Source of the DNA: Acidobacteriota bacterium
GTDB taxonomy: Bacteria; Acidobacteriota; Thermoanaerobaculia; UBA5066; Gp7-AA6
DNA length: 64,000 nt
Direction of reading: 5' to 3'
Assembly (NCBI GenBank): GCA_050257975.1
Contig: JBLMXY010000058.1
Location: forward strand, 10,274 to 74,273
The notes under the pieces are model-generated. The model ran no database searches, had not been told where the DNA came from, and saw nothing but the letters and a program-made list of their open reading frames with translations. The translations under genes and the position numbers were made by a program. Below are positions 5,627-44,797 of the stretch, one piece after another. Every line of letters begins with the position of its first letter. Position 1 is the first letter of the stretch.

Positions 5627-7390
5627 ATGCCCGTAGACGAGGCGCTGCCGCGCCGCTTCGGCTCGTACATCCTCACCGCAAGCCTCGGCGAGGACGCGCT
5701 CGGGCGCGTCTTCCGGGCGCTGCGAAGCGCTCCGGAGCGGGGCTTCGTCCGTCTGCGGATCCTGGAGTCTCCGGAGATCTCGGAGGACGCGGTCATCGAC
5801 GCGATCCAGGAGAACGGGGAGATTCATTCCTTCCTGAAGAACCCGGCGATCGCGCGCGGCGTCCAGATGGACTCGGTCGAGGGAGTCCCCTTCCTCGCCT
5901 GGAACGAAGAGAGCGGCCGCACGCTGGACGCGCTGCTGGCCAGGGCCCCGACCCTGCAGGGGCGAATCCCGCTCGAGCACTCGTTGCTGATCGCCGAGAA
6001 GATCGCCACGGCCCTGGACCACGCCTACAACACGACGATCGAGGGAGAGCGCACGCTGCACGGGCTGGTATGGCCGGGCTTCGTTTCGCTGACCGACGAC
6101 GGCGAAACGTGCCTGACGGGGTTCGGCCTCGCGCCCGGGCTGCTCGCTTCGCGCGGCCGGCCGCGGTTTGCCAGGGAGATCGCGCCGTATCTGGCGCCCG
6201 AGGAGCGGGCCGAGGGAAAGATCGGCAAGAATTCCGACGTCTACTCGGTCGGCGTCATTCTCTTCGAGCTGCTGACCGGTCGCCTTCCCGCGCCCGGCGG
6301 TCCCGTCGCCGACCTTTTTTCCGTCGCGCGAGGCCCCTCTCCGCTGCCTCCGGAAGTCACGGCGGTGCTCAAGATGTGCCTTTCCGACGCGGCCTCGCGC
6401 TATCAATCGACCGGCGAGCTGCGGCGGGAGCTGGGCAAGCTGCTCTTCTCGGGACCGTATTCGCCATCGACGTTCAACCTCGCCTACTTCCTGAACAATC
6501 TCTTCGCTCCCGAGATCGAGGCGGAGACGCGGGCCCGGGAAAAGGAAGCGGCGCTCGAACTCTCGGCGTTCCCGGAGGCTCCGGCCGCCCCAGCGGCGCC
6601 CGGGCACGAGGCCGCACCGCTCCGGCCGCAGCCTCCCCGAGCCGCGCCGCCATCCAGGGGCCCGACTCCCACGACGGCGCCGAAGTTCCTCGCCGAACCG
6701 GAGACACGCCGGAAAGCGCCGGTGGCGGTCATCGGGGGCGTTCTGCTGGCCGCAGCGGCGGCGGGAACGTGGCTCGTGATTTCGAGGCGCCAGCCTCCGC
6801 CCCCGCCCGCCATTCCCACTCCGCAGCCGACCGCCGTCGTCGTCCCGACCGCCGTTCCGCAGTCCGGTCCCTCCACGGCCGCGATGAACGCCGTCGAGTT
6901 CAAGGAGGAGGTGTCGCGGCGGGTCTCCGAGGAGATGAAGAAGCTCGAAGAGGAGGCGCAGCGTCAGAAAGAGGCCGCCGAGGCCGAAAGGCTCGCCGTG
7001 CTCGCCACCACGGCGACGGCGGTCGCCGCCGCCTCGCCGACGCCGCTGCCGACCGTCGTCGTCGTGGCGCAGCTGCCCGAGCCGACGAGCCCCCCGCCGC
7101 CGACGGCCACGCCGGTGCCGGCGCACGAGATTCCTCCGGCCATCCTGAAGGTCGTCAAGCCTCTCTACCCTCCCGTCGCGCTGCAGGCCCGCGTGGGCGG
7201 CCTCGTGATCCTGAGGGTGCTCGTGTCCGAGACGGGCGAGCCCCTCGACATCGAGGTCGTGCGGCCCGGCAAGGCGGGGCTGACGGAGGCGGCGGTCGCC
7301 GCCGTCAAGAAATGGACCTTCACGCCAGCGCGCAAGGGCGACGCCCCCGTCCGCGCCTGGACGACCGTTCCGATTCCCTTCCAGCCCTGA
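5627..7390 (+). CDS. protein-kinase-like (probably catalytically dead) domain - Pro-rich linker - TM helix - TonB C-terminal domain fusion
   Basis: The N-terminal ~270 aa has the kinase C-lobe signature (APEERAEGKIGKNSDVYSVGVILFELLTGRLP). However, HRDLKP is replaced by LHGLVWPGF, DFG by GFG, and the Gly-loop is degenerate. A TM helix follows (VAVIGGVLLAAAAAGTWLVI). The C-terminal ~85 aa is TonB_C-like (PPAILKVVKPLYPPVALQARVGGLVILRVLVSETGEPLDIEVVRPGKAGLTEAAVAAVKKWTFTPA). Confidence 0.7.
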   Translation: MPVDEALPRRFGSYILTASLGEDALGRVFRALRSAPERGFVRLRILESPEISEDAVIDAIQENGEIHSFLKNPAIARGVQMDSVEGVPFLAWNEESGRTLDALLARAPTLQGRIPLEHSLLIAEKIATALDHAYNTTIEGERTLHGLVWPGFVSLTDDGETCLTGFGLAPGLLASRGRPRFAREIAPYLAPEERAEGKIGKNSDVYSVGVILFELLTGRLPAPGGPVADLFSVARGPSPLPPEVTAVLKMCLSDAASRYQSTGELRRELGKLLFSGPYSPSTFNLAYFLNNLFAPEIEAETRAREKEAALELSAFPEAPAAPAAPGHEAAPLRPQPPRAAPPSRGPTPTTAPKFLAEPETRRKAPVAVIGGVLLAAAAAGTWLVISRRQPPPPPAIPTPQPTAVVVPTAVPQSGPSTAAMNAVEFKEEVSRRVSEEMKKLEEEAQRQKEAAEAERLAVLATTATAVAAASPTPLPTVVVVAQLPEPTSPPPPTATPVPAHEIPPAILKVVKPLYPPVALQARVGGLVILRVLVSETGEPLDIEVVRPGKAGLTEAAVAAVKKWTFTPARKGDAPVRAWTTVPIPFQP

Positions 7391-7391
7391 G

Positions 7392-7451
7392 CAGGGGTCA
7401 AGATTCAGGGGTCAGGGGTCAGAGAGGCGCCCCTCGGACACCGGACGCCGG
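7392..7451. repeat. tandem heptanucleotide repeats between convergent gene ends: CAGGGGT-type units followed by GGACRCC units
   Basis: Read directly: CAGGGGT CAAGATT CAGGGGT CAGGGGT CAGAGAG ... GGACACC GGACGCC GG. The array starts 2 nt after the stop codon at 7388-7390. Confidence 0.75.
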
Positions 7452-7455
7452 CCCG

Positions 7456-8604
7456 TTACTTCTTCGCGTAATCGATCGTCCTGATCTTCGGAAAGAGCGT
7501 GCGCAGGTAGTCTTCCATCACCTTGTCCTCGAGCCAGGTGATCTCCGTCCCGTCCACGAAGTACGTGGGGGTCGAGTTGACGCCGAGGCGGTAGCCCTCC
7601 TCCATGTCGCGGGCCACGCGCGCGAAGCTGTCGTCGCGAAGATAGCAGGACAGGAAGTCCGCGGAGCTGACTCCCTCGGCCTCGGCCGTGGTCACGGCGA
7701 GCTGGTCGATGCCGCCGACCGTCATGGACTCCTGCCCGTTGTAAACCAGCTGCTTGAACCGGAACATGGGGGCGGCGCCCGCGAAGCGGAAGATGCAGTC
7801 GGCGGCGGAGGCGGCCTTCATGGCCCAGACGTGGGCCAGCCAGAGGGGAAAGAACTTGTAGTGCCTTCGCGCGGAAACGACGCCCGCGTTGGCCTCCAGG
7901 AGCCTGTCCATCTGCTGGCCGCGAAACTTGCAGTATCCGCATTCCATGTCCGCGTACTCGACGATGTTGACCCGCGCGTCCGCGGGACCCGAGACCCGCC
8001 CGGCCGATAAGTCGATCATGCGGCGCCGCTCGGCCCGGGGGTCTTCGGCGTAGTCGAAGAGCGTGCCCTGCAGAAAGGCGCGGCCGTCGGGCGTCACGTA
8101 GCCGGACAAGCGCACCCTCCCGTATCCCGTCTGGCAGGAGACCAGCACGCCCTTGAGCCCGGCCTTGTCGCGCTCGGGCGCCAGGGCGGCGATCGCCGGC
8201 GTGTGGAAGAGGTTGGTCAGGTAGGTCGTGAGCCAGCCCAGGTCGTCGCTCGTGCGCACCGGCCTCGGATCCCGGTTTGGAAGCGTATCCCCGCCGAAGA
8301 ACCACTTCCCGTCCTCCGAAACGAAGACGACCCGGTCGCCGTTCAACTTGGCGTAGCGCCCCGTCCGGTGCGCCTTGTACGCGTGGTAGCCGGGCACGCT
8401 CTTCTCGTTGGTCCTCGAGATCGTCAGACGCGTCTCCGGATCGAACGGCAGGTACTTCAGCAGGTAGGCCTCGAGCGCCTTGTCCGCCGCGTTGGCGGGC
8501 GCCGCGGCGGGCGCCCTGGCCGGCGGCGGGGCGGGAGTCTGCCCCGCGGCGTGCATGCCCGAAAGCAGGGCGCAGAGTCCGAGAACCGTCGTTCGACTTT
8601 TCAT
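7456..8604 (-). CDS. secreted DsbA-family thioredoxin-fold protein (CxxC = CGYC) with N-terminal extra domain
   Basis: Signal peptide MKSRTTVLGLCALLSGMHAAGQ. Thioredoxin motif VEYADMECGYCKF. C-terminal GVNSTPTYFVDG typical of the DsbA family. Confidence 0.75.
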   Translation of the reverse strand: MKSRTTVLGLCALLSGMHAAGQTPAPPPARAPAAAPANAADKALEAYLLKYLPFDPETRLTISRTNEKSVPGYHAYKAHRTGRYAKLNGDRVVFVSEDGKWFFGGDTLPNRDPRPVRTSDDLGWLTTYLTNLFHTPAIAALAPERDKAGLKGVLVSCQTGYGRVRLSGYVTPDGRAFLQGTLFDYAEDPRAERRRMIDLSAGRVSGPADARVNIVEYADMECGYCKFRGQQMDRLLEANAGVVSARRHYKFFPLWLAHVWAMKAASAADCIFRFAGAAPMFRFKQLVYNGQESMTVGGIDQLAVTTAEAEGVSSADFLSCYLRDDSFARVARDMEEGYRLGVNSTPTYFVDGTEITWLEDKVMEDYLRTLFPKIRTIDYAKK

Positions 8605-8656
8605 TTCGCTCCTATTCTGACGAGGCCATGCGGCGGGTCCGCGCGCCTCGCGAAGT

Positions 8657-10687
8657 TCACGATCCCGGCGGCGCCTTTTCGCCGCGCAGCATCTTCAAGG
8701 ACTGGACCACGCCGGGCTGATCGGGCCGGATCGAGAGGGAGCGCTCGAAGAGCGCGATCGCCTCCCGCGTCCGGCCGAGGCACGTGTGGAAGAGGCCGAG
8801 AGCGTTGAAGGTGTCCGGGTCGTTCGTCGTCGTCGAGAAGGCGGCCAGAGCCGCCTCGGCTCCGGCGCAATCCTTCCCTCGGAACCGCGCGAGCGCGAGG
8901 TCGCGGGCGAGGCGCTCGCTCTTCGGATACTGTCGCGCGCCCCGCTCGAGCAACTGCCGTTCGGCGCCGGCATGGCCGTCCACGCGGTAGAGGCCGGCCC
9001 AACTGGCGACGGTCCCCTCCGGGTCCGCGTGACCCGCCGCGAGCGCGCGGAAGAGCCAGTCCTCCGCCTTCCCGAACTGATTCTGGTCGCGATAGAGCAC
9101 CGCGAGATTGAACATCGGCGAATGATAGTCGGGCCGCAGGGCGAGCGACTTCTCGAAGGCCTCCCGGGCTCGCGCGAGGTCCTTTCGCGTCTCCCGCTCG
9201 AAGAGCCCGAGGTTATTCCACGCCCCTTCCGTCATGCCGGGAACGTCTCCCCCGGTGGGCTCGAGCGGCCGCGCCTCGCTGCCCGAGAGGTACCCCAGGG
9301 CGAGCAGCTTCTTGGCGTACTCGCTCGCCTGTTCCGCCGTCATGGGCTGCGAGGCGACGCGCCGCACCGCCACGCTGCCGAAGAGATCCTTGCGGCCGGC
9401 GGCCGGAAGCCGCCCGAAAGCCGAGGCGACGGGCCGGCCCGCCATCCGGGTGTCCGCCGGCAGATCCAGCAGGGCGAGGACCGTCGGCGCGATGTCGAAG
9501 ATGCTCGCGCGGCCCCGCTCCGCCGCGCGGCGCACGCCTCTTCCCCAGAAGGCGTAGACGCCTTCCGGGCGATGCCAGAACGCGGCCGTCGACCAGTTCA
9601 GAGAGGAGCGCTCGCACGGACGGTCGGTTCCCCACTTGAACCCGTGATCGGAGTGCACGACGAGCGTGGCCCCGTCCTCCTCCGCGCGGCGCATCCACTG
9701 ACCCAGCATCCGGTCGATCACGCCGTAGTAGGCATCCACGGCGCGGGAGAAGCGGCGGGAGTCTTCCTCGGAGACGCAGGACAGGCGGGGCGGGACGAAG
9801 GAGGCGAACACATGGCCGATTTCGTCGGTGCCCTCCAGGTAGAGCGCCATCAGATCCGGGTGGTTCCGGTCGTAGAGGTCGCGCCCGATTCGCTGGTAGA
9901 CGCGCGTCGCTGCGAGGATGCGCGCCAGAGCGACGACGGGGTTCTCCATTCCGGCTCCGGAGGAGAGCGCACGGGAGATCTCCGCCTCGGGCATGTCGAG
10001 AAACGCCGAGAGGTCGCCTGCGCCGACCTGCCCGTCGCGCGCCACGACCTGCGCGACACCCGGCTCGAGGCTGGCGGGATACGCGACGCCGGAAAGGGGC
10101 AGCCTCTCGAAGAGGATCGGGCTCGCATGGTCGGACACGAAGAAGCCATCCACCTCCTCGGCCGGATGCGTGGCCCACCAGCCCACGACCCCGACGCGGC
10201 GGCCCGCCGCCGACGCCAGGTTCCAGACCGCCGGGACGGCGCGCGAGCGCCCGGAGATCGGGACTTTCTGTCCCGTCTTCGGGTCGACCTCCTGGAAGTC
10301 GAGAACGCGGTGGATGTCGGGTCCGACGCCGGTCGCCGCCGACGCCCAGAGCACCGGCGAGAGGATCGGAACGAAGCTCGCGAGATTGCCGGACGACCCC
10401 TCGGACACGAGGCGCTTCCAGTTGGGCATCTTTCCCTCGGCCGAGAGCCGGTCGAGCAGCTCCCAGTCGAGCCCGTCGAGGCCGATCCAAATGACGGGAG
10501 CCCTTCCTCCGGAGGGCCGCGGCGTCCTCGCCACGTCGGCCGCATCGACCGAGGGGGCCGACGCCACGGCTGGAGCCTGCGCGGCCGGCGACGGGGCCTC
10601 CGGCTTGCGGCAGGAAGGAATCCCCGCTGCGAGCGCCGCGAGAGCCAGCGTGACGAGAGTTCCGCGCGCCCGGGACCGCCGGATCAC
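8657..10687 (-). CDS. alkaline-phosphatase-superfamily (type I phosphodiesterase/nucleotide pyrophosphatase-like) protein with C-terminal TPR repeats, probably lipoprotein
   Basis: ORF 8657..11065 trimmed to GTG 10687 ([26 protein letters not shown], lipobox-like). Motifs PVIWIGLDGLDWELLD and LVVHSDHGF. The C-terminal ~230 aa are TPR-like. The upstream part of the track ORF overlaps the preceding gene and is Arg/Ser-rich. Confidence 0.7.
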   Translation of the reverse strand: MIRRSRARGTLVTLALAALAAGIPSCRKPEAPSPAAQAPAVASAPSVDAADVARTPRPSGGRAPVIWIGLDGLDWELLDRLSAEGKMPNWKRLVSEGSSGNLASFVPILSPVLWASAATGVGPDIHRVLDFQEVDPKTGQKVPISGRSRAVPAVWNLASAAGRRVGVVGWWATHPAEEVDGFFVSDHASPILFERLPLSGVAYPASLEPGVAQVVARDGQVGAGDLSAFLDMPEAEISRALSSGAGMENPVVALARILAATRVYQRIGRDLYDRNHPDLMALYLEGTDEIGHVFASFVPPRLSCVSEEDSRRFSRAVDAYYGVIDRMLGQWMRRAEEDGATLVVHSDHGFKWGTDRPCERSSLNWSTAAFWHRPEGVYAFWGRGVRRAAERGRASIFDIAPTVLALLDLPADTRMAGRPVASAFGRLPAAGRKDLFGSVAVRRVASQPMTAEQASEYAKKLLALGYLSGSEARPLEPTGGDVPGMTEGAWNNLGLFERETRKDLARAREAFEKSLALRPDYHSPMFNLAVLYRDQNQFGKAEDWLFRALAAGHADPEGTVASWAGLYRVDGHAGAERQLLERGARQYPKSERLARDLALARFRGKDCAGAEAALAAFSTTTNDPDTFNALGLFHTCLGRTREAIALFERSLSIRPDQPGVVQSLKMLRGEKAPPGS

Positions 10688-38037: not shown

Positions 38038-38567
38038 TGCCACGCCGTCGGCGTCACGACCTCGACCCGGCCTCCCGAGGTCGTGCGGATCGTGATCTGG
38101 TTCATGCGCGTCGAGCCCACCGGCCCCTCCACCGTAATGACGGCCGGAGTCGGGTTCGTGAAGTTGGCCAGACGGCCGTCGCCCCCGAAAGTCACCGTCC
38201 CGCCGGGAGACGCGGGGGTCGCGACGAACTGGGCGGCCTTGCCGGGCAGCACCAGCTGCTGCGGGACCGGCGTGGGCGTCGGCGCCGGGGGGTTCGGCTC
38301 GATCGTCGTAAACTCGATCGGCGGAGTGACCGAGGCGATCACGACGCTGACCTGCTGATTCCGGCGCACCGCCTTCATGCGCGCGGCGAGAAGCGTCGTC
38401 TGGATCTCGCGCGCGGCGCTCTTGATCTGGTTGCGCTGATGGAGCTTGATGAACCACGGTGTGGCGATCAGCGCCATCATCGCCATCAAGGCGAGGACGA
38501 TCATCAACTCGACGAGGGAGAACCCTCGCCGTCCCGCGGATACACAAGTCCGGAGCATTGGGCACAA
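38034..38567 (-). CDS. fimT: GspH/FimT-family minor pilin (FimT/FimU-like), first gene of the minor-pilin operon
   Basis: Prepilin motif RRGFSLVELMIVLALMAMMALIATPWF followed by a GspH-like segment (QIKSAAREIQTTLLAARMKAVRRNQ). The start may be the second Met at 38558. Confidence 0.75.
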   Translation of the reverse strand: MCPMLRTCVSAGRRGFSLVELMIVLALMAMMALIATPWFIKLHQRNQIKSAAREIQTTLLAARMKAVRRNQQVSVVIASVTPPIEFTTIEPNPPAPTPTPVPQQLVLPGKAAQFVATPASPGGTVTFGGDGRLANFTNPTPAVITVEGPVGSTRMNQITIRTTSGGRVEVVTPTAWQ

Positions 38568-38788
38568 GACAGAGCGATTCCTGTGCCCGCGTGCACGATC
38601 GAGAGAAGCCCTTTGAAATCAGCGGGATTCGAAACGAGGATCGGTCTCGATGCCCGGTCTGACGCCGATTTCGTTACGTTCGGTAACGCACGCAGGATCG
38701 GATTTCGCCCGGCGGCCGAAGCGTTCTGGGCAGGATCCCGCGACCGGCAGCCGCGCGCCGAGGGCGCTACACTGTTCACAACATATCC

Positions 38789-41269
38789 ATGTGGAAGGCA
38801 CGAGGGATTCTCGCGGCGGAGACGCGCGCGCTGCTCGCCCGGCTCAAGGCGCGCGGCTGGAAAGGGGAAGGCGAGCGGGAGGACCTGCTCCGCCGCCTCG
38901 CGGAGGCCAAGGACCTCGAACCCGAGGACGTCGCGTGGATGGCGACCGAGACGGACCCGGCGGTGCGGCAGGCCGGCCTCGCCCTGCTCAAGCGCTTCCC
39001 CTACGAGCGATCGGCGGCGGCTCTCTTCCCGATGCTCGCGACGCGCTCGGAGGCGCTGCTGCGCGCGGCGATGCAGGCCCTGGAAGCGCTGGCCGGAGCG
39101 TCGTTTCCGGAAAAGATGCTCGGGTACCTCGAGCACCGCGATCCCGCGGTCGTCAACGCGGCGCTCGAGTACGCGCGCAAGAACCCTTCCGACCGCTACC
39201 TGCCCGGCATCGCCAGGGCCCTGCATTCTTCCTCGGCGCCGATCCGTCGCAAGGCCTTCGGCATCGTCGAGGGCGTCGCGTCGCCGCGGGCCGCGACGCT
39301 CGCCCTGCGCACGCTCGAGGACGATGACGAGGAGCTCCGCTTTCGGGCCATCCAGGTCATCGCGAAGTTCCCCGACGAGTCGCACATCGGCCCGCTGCTC
39401 AAGCGCTGCCGCAACGACACGGCCCGTATCCAGGAGGCGGCCCTGGGCGCGCTCACCCCGCTGCTCGCGCGCGCGGACGACCGGTTCAACCGGGAGGTCC
39501 TTCCGCTGCTTTCTGACAACAATCCGAAGGTGCGGCAGCTCGCGGTCAAGATCCTCCAACGCCAGTCCCCAGAGAAAGTCGCCGAAGGCTTCCTGCATGC
39601 CTTTCAGGGCTCCTTCGGAATCGTGCGCGAGCGCGGCATCGAGGCGCTCGGAGCATTCGGCCCGGAGTTCATCCGGGCCTTCCTCGCCCACGACCGGGAC
39701 CCGGACGAGGGAATCGCCGGCCTCGCCTCGGCGATCGCGGTGACCGTGCGCTCCCCCGAGGCCATCCCGCACTGCGTCCGTTACCTGAAGGGGGAGGACT
39801 TCTGGATGCGGGACCGCGCGGCGCAGGCGCTGGCCGAGATCCGCCAGCCGGCCACTCTGCCCCACCTGGTCGCGATGCTCGAGGATCCCGAGTCGAATCT
39901 CTCCGCGGCCAACGCGCTCGGCGTGTGGGGTGCCGGAGAGGCGCTGCCGCCGCTGCTGGCCGCGTACAAGAAGGGCGGCGCCGATCTGCGGCTCGAGATC
40001 CTGGACGCCTTCGCCCGCATCGCGGACCCCCGCGTGGGCCCTCTGCTCGACTCGATCGTGAAGGCGGATCCCGACCCGATCGTCCGCTCCAAGGCGGCGC
40101 GCCTTTCCGCGGCGAAGGCCGGCGGCGCGGCGGCGCTTTCCGCCGCCCCTCCGGCGGCCAGGGAGTTCGCGCCCGTCGATTTCAAGGCCAACCCGAAGCC
40201 CTCGCTCGCCGATCTGCTGCGGCACGCCCGGGCGACCGAGGCTTCGGACCTGCATCTGGCCACGGGAACCCTGCCGCACGTGCGGATCAACGGCGTCCTG
40301 ACGCCGCTGCCGATGCCGGAGGTGACGGCGGAGCAGATGCAGGGGTGGATCACGCCGATCCTCACGCCGGACCGGCGCAAGCGCCTGGAGGCGGAGCGGC
40401 AGCTCGACTTCTGCCACAAGGATCCGGAGCTCGGGCGGTTTCGAACGAACGTCTTCTTCCAGCGCAAGGGGGCCAACGCGGTCTTCCGCGTCATTCCGCT
40501 CGAGGTGCCGACCGTCGCCGAGATCGAGCTGCCCGAGAGCCTCTGGGACCTGACCAACTACTCCCAGGGCCTCGTGCTCGTGACGGGCTCCTCGGGCTGC
40601 GGCAAGACGACCACGCTGGCGGCGCTGATCGACCGGATCAACCAGAGCCGCCCCCTGCACATCCTGACCATCGAGGACCCGATCGAGTACGTCCACCGGG
40701 GAAAGGAGGCGCTCGTCAACCAGCGGGAGGTGCCGTCGCACACCCGCTCCTTCGCCCGGGCGCTGCGGCAGGCGCTTCGCGAAGACCCCGACGTCATTCT
40801 CGTGGGAGAAATGCGGGACCTCGAGACCATCTCGCTCGCCATCACGGCCTCCGAGACAGGGCACCTCGTCTTCGCGACGCTGCACACGACGACCGCCGCC
40901 ACGACCGTGGACCGGGTCATCAACTCCTTCCCTCCGGACCAGCAGGGACAGATCCGCATGATGATCGCCGACTCCCTCAGGGCGGTCGTCTCGCAGGTCC
41001 TGCTGCCCCGACGGGACGGCTCGGGGCGCGTGGCCGCCTTCGAAATCCTGCGCAACACCGCCAACGTCGCCGGACTGATCCGCGAGGGGAAGACCTTCCA
41101 GATCCCGACGGCGATCCAGACCGGGGTCTCGGCGGGGATGATCACGATGGACGGCGCCCTGCTCCAGCTCGTCCAGAACGGCGCGATCGATCCGAGAGTC
41201 GGCTTCGACCACGCGCAGCGCAAGGAGGCCTTCGAGGCGCTGCTCGAAGACTCGGGGAGCGCCGCGTGA
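38789..41269 (+). CDS. PilT-family hexameric ATPase fused to a ~475-aa N-terminal HEAT/armadillo-like repeat domain
   Basis: The C-terminal ~345 aa carries all PilT boxes: Walker A GSSGCGKTT, Asp box ILTIEDPIEYVH, Walker B DPDVILVGEMRD, His box TGHLVFATLHTT, and LIREGKTFQI. The N-terminus has recurrent HEAT-like units (DPAVRQAGLALL, SAPIRRKAFGIV, DEELRFRAIQVI, NPKVRQLAVKIL, DFWMRDRAAQALAEI, DPIVRSKAARL). Confidence 0.85.
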   Translation: MWKARGILAAETRALLARLKARGWKGEGEREDLLRRLAEAKDLEPEDVAWMATETDPAVRQAGLALLKRFPYERSAAALFPMLATRSEALLRAAMQALEALAGASFPEKMLGYLEHRDPAVVNAALEYARKNPSDRYLPGIARALHSSSAPIRRKAFGIVEGVASPRAATLALRTLEDDDEELRFRAIQVIAKFPDESHIGPLLKRCRNDTARIQEAALGALTPLLARADDRFNREVLPLLSDNNPKVRQLAVKILQRQSPEKVAEGFLHAFQGSFGIVRERGIEALGAFGPEFIRAFLAHDRDPDEGIAGLASAIAVTVRSPEAIPHCVRYLKGEDFWMRDRAAQALAEIRQPATLPHLVAMLEDPESNLSAANALGVWGAGEALPPLLAAYKKGGADLRLEILDAFARIADPRVGPLLDSIVKADPDPIVRSKAARLSAAKAGGAAALSAAPPAAREFAPVDFKANPKPSLADLLRHARATEASDLHLATGTLPHVRINGVLTPLPMPEVTAEQMQGWITPILTPDRRKRLEAERQLDFCHKDPELGRFRTNVFFQRKGANAVFRVIPLEVPTVAEIELPESLWDLTNYSQGLVLVTGSSGCGKTTTLAALIDRINQSRPLHILTIEDPIEYVHRGKEALVNQREVPSHTRSFARALRQALREDPDVILVGEMRDLETISLAITASETGHLVFATLHTTTAATTVDRVINSFPPDQQGQIRMMIADSLRAVVSQVLLPRRDGSGRVAAFEILRNTANVAGLIREGKTFQIPTAIQTGVSAGMITMDGALLQLVQNGAIDPRVGFDHAQRKEAFEALLEDSGSAA

Positions 41270-42399
41270 GCGGGTCCCAGGGCCGCCGCGCGCACCGCAT
41301 CGACCGGTTCCTGTCGATCCTGCCGACGTCCAACGGCTCCGACCTCCACCTGGCGGTGGGCTCCCCTCCCATCGTCCGGCTGGACGGCGAGCTCCAGCGC
41401 AGCCGCTTCCGCGCGCTGACCGAGGGGGACTTCGAGAACCTCGTCCGGCCGATCACGCCGGCGCCCCTGTGGGAGGCATACGCGGAGAGCGGCGACGTGG
41501 ACTTCGCCTACCAGATGGGCAGTGAAGGGCGCTTCCGCGTCAACCTGTTCCGGCAGGAGAAGGGCGGCGGCGCGGTCTTCCGCCTGATCCCCTCGCGCAT
41601 CCCCACCTGCGAAGAGCTGGGCCTGCCGGCGCCGATCTCCGCGCTCTACGCGGCCGAGCGGGGCCTGGTGCTCGTGACCGGCCCGACCGGAAGCGGCAAG
41701 TCCACGACACTCGCGGGCATCCTGGATCGGATCAACAAGCGCCTTCCGTACCACATCGTGACGATCGAGGACCCGATCGAGTTCGTCCACGCCAACGACC
41801 GGTCCCTCTTCACCCAGCGTGAGATCGGGCCCGACGTCCCGACGTTCGCCGAGGGAGTCCGCGCCGCGATTCGCGAAGATCCCGACTGCTTGCTGGTGGG
41901 CGAGATGCGCGACCTGGAGACGATGCGGATGGCGCTGACGGCGGCCGAAACGGGACTGCTCGTGTTCGCGACCCTCCACACGAACTCCGCCGCGAAGGCC
42001 GTCGATCGCATCATCGACGCCTTCCCCGCCGCCGAGCAGGAGCAGATCCGGACGGTCCTGGCGGAGGTCCTGCGCGCCGTCGTCGCGCAGCAGCTGCTCC
42101 GAAAGAAGGAGCGAGGGAGGACGGCGGCTTTCGAGATCCTGCTCGGCTCGACCGCGCTGTCCAACGCGATTCGCGAGGGCAAGACCGGAATGATCAACAA
42201 CCAGATCCAGACGGGGCGCGCCAAGGGGATGATCGCGATGGATCAGTCGCTCGCCGAGCTCCTGCGCGCCGGGACCGTCGCCCCGGAGGAGGCCCTCGAC
42301 TGCGCGTTCGACAAGGATTCCCTCAAGACGCTCATCGCGACCCTGCCGAAGGAGCCGCGGCGGGAGCCGGCGGCCGCGCCGAAGGAAGCCTCAGGATGA
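41266..42399 (+). CDS. pilT: twitching-motility ATPase PilT (canonical length)
   Basis: Part of ORF 39925..42399 from GTG 41266 (GTGA overlap with the upstream stop). Motifs SDLHLAVGSPPIVRLDG, GPTGSGKSTTLA, IVTIEDPIEFVH, DPDCLLVGEMRD, TGLLVFATLHTNSA, AIREGKTGMI. Confidence 0.92.
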   Translation: MSGSQGRRAHRIDRFLSILPTSNGSDLHLAVGSPPIVRLDGELQRSRFRALTEGDFENLVRPITPAPLWEAYAESGDVDFAYQMGSEGRFRVNLFRQEKGGGAVFRLIPSRIPTCEELGLPAPISALYAAERGLVLVTGPTGSGKSTTLAGILDRINKRLPYHIVTIEDPIEFVHANDRSLFTQREIGPDVPTFAEGVRAAIREDPDCLLVGEMRDLETMRMALTAAETGLLVFATLHTNSAAKAVDRIIDAFPAAEQEQIRTVLAEVLRAVVAQQLLRKKERGRTAAFEILLGSTALSNAIREGKTGMINNQIQTGRAKGMIAMDQSLAELLRAGTVAPEEALDCAFDKDSLKTLIATLPKEPRREPAAAPKEASG

Positions 42400-44161
42400 A
42401 GAAGGAGCCGCCGCCGGGGCGCGCCGACACCTCGACGGTGCCGCCGTGCAGGTCGGCGATCCGCCCCACGATGGCCAGTCCGAAGCCCGCGCCGTCGGGC
42501 TTGGTCGAGTAGAACGGCATGAAGATCTTCTCCCTCTGAGCCGGATCGACGCCGGCGCCCCGGTCCCCGACGGACAGCGCGAGCTCCTCCCCGCCGACCC
42601 GACCCTCGAGCACGATGGCCTCCCCGGCGGCCCGCTGCGCGACCGGAGTCGCCTGCACGGCGTTGCGCAGCAGGTTGACCAGCGCGCGGCGCAGAAGCAC
42701 CGCCGACCCGCGAACCTCCGGGAATTCGCCCCGGCGGGCGACCGGCACGCCGGGAAACGCCCCTTCGATCTCGCGCACGGCCGCGTCCACGACGCCCTCG
42801 AGCGGGACGGCCTCGGGCGAAAAGCCCTCCGGCCGCGCGAAGAGCAGGAAGTCGCTCGTCACCCGGCTCATCTCCTGCGCCTCGCGGCGGATCGCCTTCA
42901 GGTGCTCGACCGCGCGCTCCGGGTGCCGCAGCGCCAGGTCGGCATAGCCGTCGATCGCGGCGGCCGCGTTTCGAAATTCGTGGGCGGCGCCCGCGGAGAC
43001 TTCTCCCAGGTCGGCGAGATGGCGCGCGAGCGCCACGCGCGCCTCGAGCCGCCGCACCTCCGACAGGTCGGTGAAGAGGGCGAGCACGCCGAGGAAGCGT
43101 CCGTCGGCCCCCATCGCCGCCGTCGCCGTGACGCCGAGCACGCGCTCCTCGCCCTGCCGGACCCAGCGCGCCTCGCGCCGCTCGAGGGTCTCGCGCTCGC
43201 GCAGGGCCCGGGCCACCAGCTCCCGAAGCTCCGGGATGTCCGCCAGGAGCCTCTCGAACGGCTCTCCCCGCGCCTCGCGCGAGAGCGCGAGGATCTCCCG
43301 GCCGGCCTCGTTCAGCTCGACGACGGTCCCCTGCGGATCGAGCGACAGGAGACCGGTGGGAAGGTTTCGCGCGAGCGTGCGCGCGGCGGTCTCGAGATCG
43401 TCGGCTCGCTCCTTCTCGAGGCGTGCGAGGCGATGGAGCTCGCGCTCCTTCTCCGAGAGGGATGCGATCGTCGACTCGAACCGCGCGATCAGGAACTCGC
43501 GCTCGTCGCCGACGGCCTTCTCGCCGCCGGCCACCGCGCCCGCGGTCTCGAGCATCCGATCGTAGGGCGCGAGCAGCGACTTGAGGTACAGGCCCGCCAG
43601 CACGACGAGCGCCGCCCCGGCCACGGGCACGAGGATCGTCATCAAGAGGGCCAGCCAACGCAGCGTCGCGCCCGGGCCGGGCTCGAGCGCGAGCAGGTAG
43701 GTGCGCCTGCCGTCCGAGAGGGCGGCGAGCAGCAGCGCCGGCCGCCGCTTCCACTGGTAGGACACGCGGCCGGGGGGCGGCCTCTCGACCGAAAGGACGA
43801 GCGGCGCCTGGAAGCCGTGGCCCGAGCTCTGCACGCGGCGCCCCCGCTCGTCGTAGACGCCGACGAACACGACGTCCGGCTCGAGAACGGCGCGCTCGAT
43901 CGACTCCGCCGCGGCTTCGGGGGCCGGCGGGAGCGACAGGCGCCGCAGCAGCTCTCCCGCGCGCCGCTCGGTGACGAGCTCGCCCCAGGCCACCGCGTTG
44001 CGGAAGAAGAGGAGCGTGATGAAGTTGACGAAGAGGATCAGCAGCAGCGCGATCCAGAGGAAGAGCCGGGATTCGCGGCGGAAGGAGCGCGGGACCTGTC
44101 CTCCGTTGCCGGAGGAAGACTCCGCGCGATCCGGCTCGGCCGCGTTCTCTGGGCTGGGCAT
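42332..44161 (-). CDS. membrane sensor histidine kinase (2 TM + PAS-like + HisKA + HATPase; PilS/NtrB-like)
   Basis: ORF 42332..44779 trimmed to ATG 44161 (MPSPENAAEP...). TM helices LFLWIALLLILFVNFITLLFF and LALLMTILVPVAGAALVVLAGLYL. H-box EVSAGAAHEFRNAAAAI. N/G boxes LLRNAVQA, DRGAGVDP, GAGFGLAIV. Confidence 0.85.
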   Translation of the reverse strand: MPSPENAAEPDRAESSSGNGGQVPRSFRRESRLFLWIALLLILFVNFITLLFFRNAVAWGELVTERRAGELLRRLSLPPAPEAAAESIERAVLEPDVVFVGVYDERGRRVQSSGHGFQAPLVLSVERPPPGRVSYQWKRRPALLLAALSDGRRTYLLALEPGPGATLRWLALLMTILVPVAGAALVVLAGLYLKSLLAPYDRMLETAGAVAGGEKAVGDEREFLIARFESTIASLSEKERELHRLARLEKERADDLETAARTLARNLPTGLLSLDPQGTVVELNEAGREILALSREARGEPFERLLADIPELRELVARALRERETLERREARWVRQGEERVLGVTATAAMGADGRFLGVLALFTDLSEVRRLEARVALARHLADLGEVSAGAAHEFRNAAAAIDGYADLALRHPERAVEHLKAIRREAQEMSRVTSDFLLFARPEGFSPEAVPLEGVVDAAVREIEGAFPGVPVARRGEFPEVRGSAVLLRRALVNLLRNAVQATPVAQRAAGEAIVLEGRVGGEELALSVGDRGAGVDPAQREKIFMPFYSTKPDGAGFGLAIVGRIADLHGGTVEVSARPGGGSFFILRLPSARPPAPAAAPSAGSR

Positions 44162-44251
44162 GGCTCTCGATGGGTCCGTGCTACATTGTAAGAAGAGGTC
44201 AGGGTTACGCGACTCCCGAATCTGGCAGGCGGGGCGATCGCCGCGGTTCTC

Positions 44252-44797
44252 TTGCTGCCCGCCCGGGCGGCGTCGGGCCAGAGCCTGCCCGTGGCGGTGG
44301 GACAGGAGCACGAGCAGGCCGTCGCCGCGCTCAAGGCCAAAGGGATCGATTTCCACGAGGAAACGGCCGGCACGGGCAAGCGAATCACCTACGGCGCCGC
44401 GGGCGAGTCGGTGACGCTCGACTTCACGATGTGGCCCGGGGACTCGAACGCGCCGGCGTCCTCCTGGGAGTCCGCCGACACGTCCAACAAGCGGCTCCTG
44501 CTGACGCACATTCTCGACGTCGCCCCGGGATCCGAGGCCCGCCGCGACTGGGTGCGCACCTTCGAAAAGGAGGGCGGTCACTGGGCCTACCTCTCGGAGA
44601 AGGCGATGGCGCAGCGGCCCGCCGCACAGCGCGCGCGATACCCGGTCGTGGCGTTTCTCCAGTGGCCGGGCTCTTCCGGCTCCTTCCCCGTGACGTTTCT
44701 CTTCCAGGCCGCGCGGCCCGCCGGCACGCCTCCCGGAAAGGAGACGACCGCCCTCGAGGTCTTCCTCGAGAATCCGCACAAGCCGCGCCTGTTCTGA
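44252..44797 (+). CDS. hypothetical protein (possibly secreted)
   Basis: 181-aa ORF starting at TTG 44252. Protein-like composition (KAKGIDFHEETAGTGKRITYGAAGESVTLDFTMWPGD...). Upstream in-frame codons read ...AIAAVLL, suggesting a signal peptide truncated by the start-codon call. Confidence 0.45.
   Translation: MLPARAASGQSLPVAVGQEHEQAVAALKAKGIDFHEETAGTGKRITYGAAGESVTLDFTMWPGDSNAPASSWESADTSNKRLLLTHILDVAPGSEARRDWVRTFEKEGGHWAYLSEKAMAQRPAAQRARYPVVAFLQWPGSSGSFPVTFLFQAARPAGTPPGKETTALEVFLENPHKPRLF

What the first reader, a model, noticed from the sequence alone, without database searches (positions are those of the whole stretch)
38789..41269. PilT-type retraction ATPase fused to a ~475-aa HEAT-repeat N-terminal domain, translationally coupled to a canonical pilT
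Canonical PilT/PilU proteins are about 345-380 aa, like the downstream gene 41266..42399. This paralog carries all ATPase boxes but with an atypical Walker A (GSSGCGKTT instead of GPTGSGKST). It also has a long helical-repeat N-terminus with at least 7-8 HEAT-like units. A protein-protein interaction scaffold bolted onto a pilus motor suggests recruitment or regulation by another partner (e.g. c-di-GMP effector, polarity factor, secretin/platform). The gene is divergently arranged from the minor-pilin operon and overlaps pilT by GTGA.
Basis: partly seen in the sequence, partly recalled or inferred. Interest (0 to 1): 0.6.

Follow-up and report, generated by a model that had tools for sequence, protein, structure and literature searches.

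The report
HEAT-armed PilT motor with partner PilT
This gene really does encode a pilus-retraction-type (PilT) motor ATPase with a 440-residue HEAT-repeat arm, and it always travels with a second, specialised PilT gene, so the two probably form a single, still uncharacterised two-part motor.

Summary
ORF 38789..41269 encodes 826 aa: a confident alpha-solenoid of about 13 HEAT hairpins (aa 10-443), a disordered linker, then a complete PilT module. It overlaps by GTGA a 377-aa PilT-family gene.

It is not an assembly artefact. Hundreds of collinear orthologues exist: about 68 of 151 genomes sampled from its class (named Thermoanaerobaculia, Acidobacteriota) and about 23 of 121 Myxococcota.

The downstream gene is not the canonical pilT. 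That one, with an exact AIRNLIRE motif beside pilB and pilC, lies on another contig.

The fusion (A) and its partner (B) are sister clades with mirrored trees. They are adjacent in 49 of 50 loci; the fiftieth is cut by a contig end. Minor-pilin linkage holds only in part of this order (families f1 and f2).

Degeneration is one-sided. B always lacks the first His-box histidine but keeps every other ATP-site motif canonical. A always keeps ETGH but has a variable P-loop and often loses the gamma-phosphate histidine.

I read A as the HEAT-docked adaptor and B as the main catalytic subunit of one motor. A mixed A3B3 ring is possible but unproven.

This scan found the pair before in Myxococcota. 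No paper describes it. The nearest studied case is M. xanthus MXAN_6705/6706.

The parts
38789..41269 (+). Gene A: HEAT-repeat::PilT fusion, 826 aa
   Evidence: ORF and translation. Pfam and NCBIfam hits. More than 120 collinear orthologues of 62-84% identity.
38816..40117 (+). HEAT-like alpha-solenoid, aa 10-443 (27 helices, about 13 hairpins)
   Evidence: AlphaFold2 block pLDDT about 70-94. HEAT_2, HEAT and HEAT_PBS hits. Sequence matches to AlphaRep designed HEAT proteins in the PDB.
40118..40204 (+). Ala/Gly/Pro-rich flexible linker, aa 444-472, ending in a conserved RxFxPxDF motif
   Evidence: pLDDT about 45-55 with no secondary structure. The alignment is variable here except for D464, F465 and P471.
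40205..41266 (+). PilT ATPase module of A, aa 473-826
   Evidence: TIGR01420 430 bits. Foldseek TM 0.86-0.92 to PilT4 (6OJX) and P. aeruginosa PilT (3JVV) at 44-48% identity. phmmer 323 bits to 3JVU against 240 to PilU 9N32.
40586..40612 (+). Walker A of A, GSSGCGKTT (aa 600-608); Cys604 is clade-typical
   Evidence: A-clade P-loops vary (GPAGCGKTT, GPSGSGKST and others), whereas B is always GPTGSGKST.
40853..40888 (+). His box of A, ETGHLVFATLHT (aa 689-700); both histidines present in this clade
   Evidence: ETGH (GTGH in one locus) is kept in all 49 A sequences that could be read. The second His is lost in 19 of them, in other lineages.
41253..41269 (+). A/B junction: SD-like GGGGAG, GTG start of B at 41266, overlapping the TGA stop of A at 41267-41269
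   Evidence: Sequence read directly. Relatives show overlaps of 1-4 nt or gaps of 2-36 nt.
41266..42399 (+). Gene B: partner PilT-family ATPase, 377 aa
   Evidence: TIGR01420 428 bits. Forms its own clade, sister to the A ATPase module. Lies directly downstream of A in 49 of 50 loci.
41947..41982 (+). His box of B, ETGLLVFATLHT: first His replaced by Leu, second His kept
   Evidence: The first His is L, T, V, F, I or S in every direct partner examined.
38568..38788 (.). Divergent intergenic region. Motifs conserved within the family: sigma-54-like GGCAC-N5-TCGC on the minus strand (38574-38588), palindrome CGTTAC-N5-GTAACG (38672-38688), and a -10-like TACACTG (38768-38774) before A
   Evidence: Alignment of upstream regions from 12 family members. 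Pattern hit at 38574-38588. Function is inferred only.
29780..38567 (-). Context: minor-pilin operon (GspH/FimT-like, PilV, PilW, PilX, 1888-aa PilY1)
   Evidence: Pfam hits. The same arrangement occurs in L009 and in family f2. It is absent next to A/B in f3, in the 35%-identity group and in Myxococcota.
42332..44779 (-). Context: convergent PAS-HisKA-HATPase histidine kinase overlapping the 3' end of B
   Evidence: Pfam hits. Conserved after B in L009 and L050-L052 only.

Best explanation
Genes A (HEAT::PilT, 38789..41269) and B (41266..42399) encode the two subunits of one accessory PilT-type motor. They are not a decorated PilT placed next to the housekeeping PilT. B is the strictly conserved catalytic subunit. 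A is a PilT-fold subunit whose own ATP site is evolutionarily relaxed. It carries a roughly 440-residue HEAT solenoid on a flexible tether of about 30 residues. That arm docks or regulates the motor at a partner not yet identified (inferred). In this organism and part of its order (families f1 and f2) the pair sits back to back with one of two minor-pilin/PilY1 operons. It therefore most likely acts as a second retraction motor for type IVa pili primed by that set, alongside the canonical PilB-PilT-PilC cluster on contig C16 (inferred from linkage). Shown: domain architecture, fold, conservation, obligate adjacency, sister-clade origin and the asymmetric motif pattern. Inferred: physical A-B association, its geometry (mixed ring or stacked rings), the target of the HEAT arm, and the pilus-retraction role.
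For: Architecture and fold are established. B lies directly downstream of A in 49 of 50 distinct loci from two phyla. The exception is cut by a contig end. Junctions are usually overlapping. In the tree of ATPase modules, A is one clade (SH-aLRT 95), B is one clade (98), and the two group together (93) apart from the four other paralogues of this genome. Branching orders within A and within B mirror each other. The motif asymmetry is consistent. All direct B partners have GPTGSGKST, GE[ML]RD (one not matched by the pattern) and the second His, but never the first His-box histidine. All A sequences keep ETGH (GTGH in one locus), but have variable P-loops. Nineteen of about 49 have lost the gamma-phosphate histidine, several together with Walker B E to D. 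[quoted passage not shown] Every degenerate feature therefore maps to the A-bound site and none to the B-bound site. There is a precedent that an inactive PilT can still link an active partner ATPase to the machine (PMC12607626). Pilus linkage: a divergent minor-pilin/PilY1 operon is conserved in families f1 and f2. The canonical pilB-pilT-pilC cluster lies elsewhere.
Against: There is no experimental or co-folding evidence that A and B touch. In the window's own clade A keeps every catalytic residue, so it could be a fully independent motor. The one studied tandem, PilT/PilU, forms separate homohexamers. The association between loss of the B Thr and loss of the A second His rests on about two events and has no statistical power. 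The trans role of the first histidine itself is my inference from its neighbour Thr. P. aeruginosa PilT H222A is only slowed, not dead. Outside this order the pair has no pilus genes nearby. No candidate ligand for the HEAT arm emerged.
Confidence: 0.55

Rival explanations
1. A and B form two separate homohexamers that cooperate like PilT and PilU. The rings act side by side or stacked. The HEAT-armed A ring links the B ring to the pilus machine or to a regulator. There is no mixed ring.
For: [quoted passage not shown] In the window's clade both proteins keep Walker A, Walker B, the Asp box and the second His. Single-chain double-PilT proteins exist; stacked rings are one possible arrangement for them.
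Against: A B6 ring would give every strictly conserved B site a degenerate trans motif. An A6 ring in many lineages would lack the gamma-phosphate histidine at all six sites while still conserving ETGH strictly. This pattern is easier to explain if A's ETGH serves B's site.
Confidence: 0.3
2. The A/B pair is not a pilus motor. It is a PilT-fold ATPase pair recruited to another process, for example kinase-linked signalling or remodelling of another envelope machine. Its position beside minor pilins here is a lineage-specific accident.
For: Across the class and in Myxococcota the only conserved neighbour is B. Pilus genes are adjacent only in families f1 and f2. Myxococcota versions sit next to Ser/Thr kinases. 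Some loci hold four PilT-like genes plus a HEAT_2 protein and a LON substrate-binding protein.
Against: Both modules score well above the PilT/PilU family cut-off and are 44-48% identical to bona fide PilT proteins. The block of minor pilins, A/B and kinase is syntenic in families f1 and f2. In M. xanthus, deleting one gene of an adjacent PilT-paralogue pair weakens pilus-dependent motility, though orthology was not tested here.
Confidence: 0.12
3. The 826-aa frame is an artefact: two genes joined by a sequencing or assembly error.
For: None was found.
Against: More than 120 orthologues of 820-831 aa at 62-84% identity cover 98-100% of the query, from independent assemblies that include megabase contigs. 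About 30 more clusters at 31-53% identity are collinear over the full length. The linker and the junction motif are conserved.
Confidence: 0.01

Closest known systems
PilT, the type IVa pilus retraction ATPase (P. aeruginosa PilT 3JVU/3JVV; Geobacter PilT4 6OJX/5ZFQ; Aquifex PilT 2EWV)
   Same: The C-terminal 354 residues of A, and all of B, have the PilT fold and motifs. TM-score is 0.86-0.92 at 44-48% identity, and both score over the TIGR01420 cut-off.
   Different: Canonical PilT is about 345-385 aa with no N-terminal domain and carries AIRNLIRE. A has NVAGLIRE plus a 470-residue HEAT arm and linker. B has ALSNAIRE and lacks the first His-box histidine. The genome has a separate canonical PilT beside pilB and pilC.
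PilT-PilU tandem retraction motors (Pseudomonas, Vibrio, Acinetobacter, Neisseria; PMC12607626)
   Same: Two adjacent PilT-family genes act on one machine. One partner can be catalytically weak yet still be needed as a link.
   Different: Neither A nor B is PilU-like: 323 and 325 bits to PilT against 240 and 219 to PilU 9N32. PilT and PilU have no HEAT arm and are reported not to mix in one ring. The A/B pair exists in addition to a canonical PilT.
Myxococcus xanthus PilT paralogue pair MXAN_6705/MXAN_6706 (bioRxiv 10.64898/2026.05.11.724270)
   Same: These are adjacent PilT paralogues conserved across Myxococcales. The first has a longer N-terminus. Deleting MXAN_6706 gives a partial S-motility defect. 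HEAT::PilT plus PilT pairs are common in Myxococcota.
   Different: The MXAN_6705 extension is described as intrinsically disordered, not HEAT. I could not fetch those sequences, so orthology with A/B and the His-box pattern are untested.
N-terminal docking domains of extension and secretion ATPases (PilB/GspE N1 and MshEN domains, from general knowledge of these families)
   Same: An extra N-terminal domain on a flexible linker is attached to a PilT-like hexameric ATPase. In those systems it binds a machine component or c-di-GMP. One relative (P0248) even combines MshEN, HEAT and PilT.
   Different: The fold is different (HEAT solenoid), it sits on a retraction-type rather than an extension-type ATPase, and its partner is unknown.
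PBS-lyase-type HEAT-like repeats (Pfam HEAT_2/HEAT_PBS; designed AlphaRep proteins such as 3LTJ and 6FSQ)
   Same: Sequence-level matches of the N-domain at E 1e-9 to 1e-32.
   Different: These are generic binding scaffolds and carry no functional information about the target.

Membership tests
PilT/PilU family type 4a pilus ATPase (TIGR01420) | Whole-protein score over the curated cut-off (319.1 bits) | tested here: met
   A scores 429.8 bits on aa 473-812 and B scores 428.3 bits.
PilT/PilU family type 4a pilus ATPase (TIGR01420) | Walker A, Asp box, Walker B and both His-box histidines | tested here: inconclusive
   A in this window has all of them, with an unusual Cys in the P-loop. B has all except the first His-box histidine, which is Leu. 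PilT H222A in P. aeruginosa is slowed but functional.
PilT/PilU family type 4a pilus ATPase (TIGR01420) | PilT two-domain fold | tested here: met
   The AlphaFold2 model matches 6OJX and 3JVV with TM 0.86-0.92. B was not modelled.
Canonical PilT (housekeeping retraction motor) | C-terminal AIRNLIRE motif and a pilB-pilT-pilC gene neighbourhood | tested here: not met
   A has NVAGLIRE and B has ALSNAIRE. The paralogue on contig C16 has exact AIRNLIRE and lies between pilB-like and pilC-like genes.
Canonical PilT (housekeeping retraction motor) | Homohexamer that retracts pili | not testable with these tools
   This needs biochemistry or genetics.
PilU | Closer to PilU than to PilT | tested here: not met
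   Scores are 323/325 bits to PilT 3JVU against 240/219 bits to PilU 9N32.
HEAT-repeat proteins (Pfam HEAT_2, PF13646) | Score over the gathering cut-off and an alpha-solenoid of helical hairpins | tested here: met
   123 bits in 5 stretches against a cut-off of 27.7. The model has 27 helices with block pLDDT about 70-94.
HEAT::PilT + partner PilT module (A/B pair; an unnamed family seen earlier by this scan) | A followed directly by B; A and B in their own sister clades; B without the first His-box histidine; A with ETGH | tested here: met
   The window pair nests inside both clades.
M. xanthus MXAN_6705/6706 pair | Orthology of the ATPase modules with A and B | not tested
   The sequences could not be fetched. 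Only the published description was used.

The most novel reading that the evidence does not exclude
A and B alternate in one ring, forming an A3B3 heterohexameric PilT-type motor. It would have three competent ATP sites (ATP bound by B, closed in trans by A's invariant ETGH) and three relaxed or regulatory sites (ATP bound by A, next to B's degenerate motif). Three HEAT arms would project from the ring. This would be the first heteromeric motor in the PilT/GspE/VirB11 superfamily, and a built-in version of the C3 open-closed-open-closed ring seen in PilT crystals.
Probability: 0.3. Interest if true: 0.85.

Novelty: new variant of a known kind. Interest (0 to 1): 0.55.

Why it matters
How bacteria use several PilT paralogues is an open question. 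So far only PilT and PilU have been dissected, and both are plain homohexamers. This is a widespread, strongly conserved pair found in two phyla and hundreds of genomes. One subunit carries a large protein-binding arm and has a relaxed ATP site. The other is a strictly conserved catalytic module that lacks one trans-acting residue.

If the two subunits co-assemble, the pair would show how a pilus motor can be tethered and asymmetrically regulated. It would also add a heteromeric member to a motor superfamily so far described only as homomeric. The Thermoanaerobaculia version adds something the Myxococcota versions lack. It is physically linked to a minor-pilin/PilY1 set, which ties the module to type IV pili and suggests that a particular motor serves a particular pilus-tip complex.

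Tried and rejected
It returned only 11 true relatives, all uncultured MAGs, so no cultured or tractable host was identified.

2. The profile search with distant fusions returned mostly generic HEAT proteins, because the word index draws on the first 500 residues. Only 11 fusions were recovered.

3. I tested whether loss of the B Thr and loss of the A second His are linked on the tree. There are only about 2 independent changes each, so the test has no power. I do not claim covariation.

4. A sigma-54 consensus scan of the window gave no more hits than chance. The one hit in the intergenic region is kept only because it is conserved in relatives. The sigma-70 and terminator scans found nothing useful.

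5. A search for conserved neighbours of A/B across the class found none other than B.

6. I checked whether single-chain double-PilT proteins are A-B fusions. They are a different family, with both halves keeping the first His, so they are not Rosetta-stone evidence for A-B contact.

9. Only one distant relative carries an MshEN domain.
Full report
**Observation.** The frame 38789..41269 on the plus strand is open and begins with the first possible start codon. It gives 826 residues (P0001). Pfam finds HEAT_2 in five stretches, plus HEAT, HEAT_PBS and T2SSE. NCBIfam TIGR01420 (PilT/PilU family) scores 430 bits over aa 473-812, above the cut-off of 319.

The next gene, 41266..42399 (P0002, 377 aa), scores 428 bits on the same model. 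Its GTG start overlaps the TGA stop of the first gene, and GGGGAG lies 7 nt upstream.

Upstream on the other strand lie GspH/FimT-like, PilV, PilW, PilX and a 1888-aa PilY1 gene. Downstream lies a convergent PAS histidine kinase.

**Not an artefact.** More than 120 proteins of 820-831 aa match at 62-84% identity, all but a few truncated entries over 98-100% of the query. Several come from megabase contigs. Those that carry a name are labelled Thermoanaerobaculia. Sixteen of them align without breaks, and the HEAT half is conserved as well as the ATPase half.

An exhaustive search of representatives at 50% identity adds about 30 clusters. These are collinear over the whole length at 31-53% identity. 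A second class of 910-960 aa has a longer N-terminus.

In 151 genomes drawn evenly from the window's class, about 68 have the full-length fusion: 15 of 18 in its family f1, all 16 of f2, all 3 of f3, and 34 genomes of other families at about 35% identity. In 121 Myxococcota genomes about 13 have a full-length version and about 10 more a partial-HEAT version. Names given by sources include Thermoanaerobaculia, Acidobacteriota, Myxococcota and 'Deltaproteobacteria' MAGs.

**Structure.** AlphaFold2, run on a 56-sequence alignment, gives mean pLDDT 82.7.
- Residues 10-443 form 27 helices, an alpha-solenoid of about 13 hairpins rather than 7-8.
- Residues 444-472 are disordered.
- Residues 473-819 have the PilT fold.
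- pTM is low (0.49), which fits two domains on a flexible tether.

Foldseek matches the C-terminal half to PilT4 of Geobacter and PilT of P. aeruginosa with TM 0.86-0.92 at 44-48% identity. None of the 50 best structural matches listed covers both halves. By sequence, both A's ATPase module and B are nearer to PilT than to PilU. The N-domain matches only designed AlphaRep HEAT proteins.

**The downstream gene is not the housekeeping pilT.** The genome holds six proteins over the PilT-family cut-off. The one on contig C16 has the exact AIRNLIRE motif. It lies between a PilB-like gene and a PilC-like gene. A has NVAGLIRE and B has ALSNAIRE. The genome also has a second PilY1 on contig C10 and PilM on C1. 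The window therefore holds one of two minor-pilin/PilY1 sets together with an accessory ATPase pair.

**The invariant unit is the pair.** I examined 50 distinct loci: the window, six assembly contigs, 30 from the class and 13 from Myxococcota. The fusion is followed at once by a PilT-family gene in 49 of them. The remaining locus is cut by a contig end, and in one locus B is split across two frames.

Each downstream gene is more like P0002 than like A's ATPase module, and the reverse also holds. One Myxococcota locus (L010) is ambiguous.

A maximum-likelihood tree places all A modules in one clade (SH-aLRT 95, or 83 with one long branch). All direct partners form another clade (98). The two clades group together (93), apart from the four other paralogues of this genome. 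Branching orders within A and within B mirror each other. This points to an old tandem duplication that has since been inherited as a unit.

The minor-pilin operon and the PAS kinase accompany the pair only in families f1 and f2. No other neighbour is conserved across the class. Myxococcota versions sit next to Ser/Thr kinases. Two contigs carry four PilT-like genes in a row, followed by a HEAT_2 protein and a LON substrate-binding protein.

**One-sided degeneration.** I read the catalytic motifs in all pairs.
- *B, intact motifs:* every direct partner has Walker A GPTGSGKST and the second His-box histidine. Walker B GE[ML]RD was read in all but one, where the pattern did not match.
- *B, degenerate motifs:* none has the first histidine. 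It is L, T, V, F, I or S, and the preceding Thr is R or K in two lineages.
- *A, intact motif:* all 49 readable A sequences keep ETGH (GTGH in one locus).
- *A, degenerate motifs:* A's P-loop varies (Cys in 27 of 39, and Ser for the fourth Gly in four). Nineteen have lost the second histidine, several together with Walker B Glu to Asp.
- *The window's own A* keeps all catalytic residues apart from the Cys-bearing P-loop.

The literature gives these residues a role. [quoted passage not shown] The Thr of the His box contacts that histidine of the adjacent chain in the closed interface (10.1101/672212). In P. aeruginosa, H229A abolishes twitching, whereas H222A only slows retraction (PMC10187167).

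Every degenerate feature therefore belongs to one composite site: ATP bound by A, closed by B. None belongs to the other site: ATP bound by B, closed by A. This is what an alternating A-B ring would predict. It is harder to explain with separate A6 and B6 rings.

The evidence is descriptive, and I state its limits. A test for linked change on the tree had only about two events and no power. The trans role of the first histidine is inferred from its neighbour. The studied PilT/PilU pair does not mix in one ring (PMC12607626).

**Mechanism proposed.** A and B form one accessory PilT-type motor. B supplies most of the catalysis. A supplies a tethered HEAT arm that docks or regulates the motor at an unknown partner. 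In this order the motor probably serves pili primed by the adjacent minor-pilin/PilY1 set. Whether the geometry is a mixed ring or stacked rings is open. I give the partnership 0.55, the mixed ring 0.3, cooperating homohexamers 0.3 and a non-pilus role about 0.12.

**Comparison with what is known.** I found no paper that mentions a HEAT::PilT protein. The nearest studied case is the adjacent pair MXAN_6705/6706 of M. xanthus. That pair is conserved across Myxococcales. The first gene has a longer N-terminus, described as disordered, and deleting 6706 gives a partial motility defect. I could not fetch those sequences, so orthology is untested. [quoted passage not shown]

This scan has reported the HEAT::PilT plus PilT pair before in Myxococcota genomes, including kinase-linked and catalytically dead variants. 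New here are:
- the Acidobacteriota branch with its pilin linkage;
- the sister-clade tree;
- the rule that B lacks the first histidine while A keeps ETGH.

**Verdict.** The feature is real, conserved and uncharacterised. It is a new variant of a known kind of motor. Interest is moderate, and would be high if the mixed-ring reading is confirmed.

Noticed in passing
window 38556-38588 (minus strand): A sigma-54-like element GGCAC-N5-TCGC and an ATG 16 nt downstream of it (38558) are conserved in most family members (about 10 of the 12 aligned sequences). The GspH/FimT-like gene therefore probably starts at 38558, not at the TTG at 38567. It may be transcribed nearly leaderless from a sigma-54 promoter, which would fit the NtrC/PilR-like gene at the end of the operon.
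   Followed up: partly
window 38672-38688: A perfect palindrome CGTTAC-N5-GTAACG lies about 95 bp upstream of the sigma-54-like element. It is conserved as GTTAC-N5-6-GTAAC across the family. It may be an activator-binding site shared by the two divergent operons.
   Followed up: partly
window 38768-38774: TACACTG or TAAACTG is conserved 15-20 nt before the ATG of gene A in family members. It looks like a -10 element. A would then have a very short leader and no Shine-Dalgarno sequence.
   Followed up: no
P0127, P0129, P0133, P0136, P0143, P0146, P0126 (representatives): These single polypeptides of 720-1020 aa hold two complete PilT modules in tandem. The first module has diverged motifs (LTGH, odd P-loops) and the second is canonical. 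They look like a separate 'double PilT' family. P0127 also has an N-terminal DUF4388 domain.
   Followed up: partly
P0248 (1336 aa): A relative combines an MshEN (c-di-GMP-binding type) domain, HEAT repeats and a PilT module in one protein.
   Followed up: no
L012:3615-13859 and L014:8001-18056: These contigs carry clusters of four consecutive PilT-like ATPase genes (HEAT::PilT, a 585-645-aa partner with an unassigned N-extension, a 359-aa one and a 562-564-aa one). They are followed by an unknown 303-aa gene, a 476-aa HEAT_2 protein and a LON substrate-binding-domain protein.
   Followed up: partly
class survey, family f14 genus g31: About 21 genomes of one genus in the class, many of them closed, have no PilT-family gene at all. 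Their best match is E about 1e-24. This lineage appears to have lost retractile pili.
   Followed up: no
G000 contigs C43:17105-18133 and C10:7410-8570: Another PilT paralogue in this genome has a roughly 100-aa C-terminal extension (480 aa). A second PilY1 of about 1556 aa lies on contig C10.
   Followed up: no
L060 (G099:C4), 7009-8707: In one class member the B partner is split across two reading frames. This is either a frameshift or an assembly error.
   Followed up: no
G151 and G152 (Myxococcota MAGs): Each genome holds 10 and 12 PilT-family genes over the cut-off, respectively, including two to three separate tandem pairs. The paired arrangement has been duplicated repeatedly within single genomes.
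   Followed up: no
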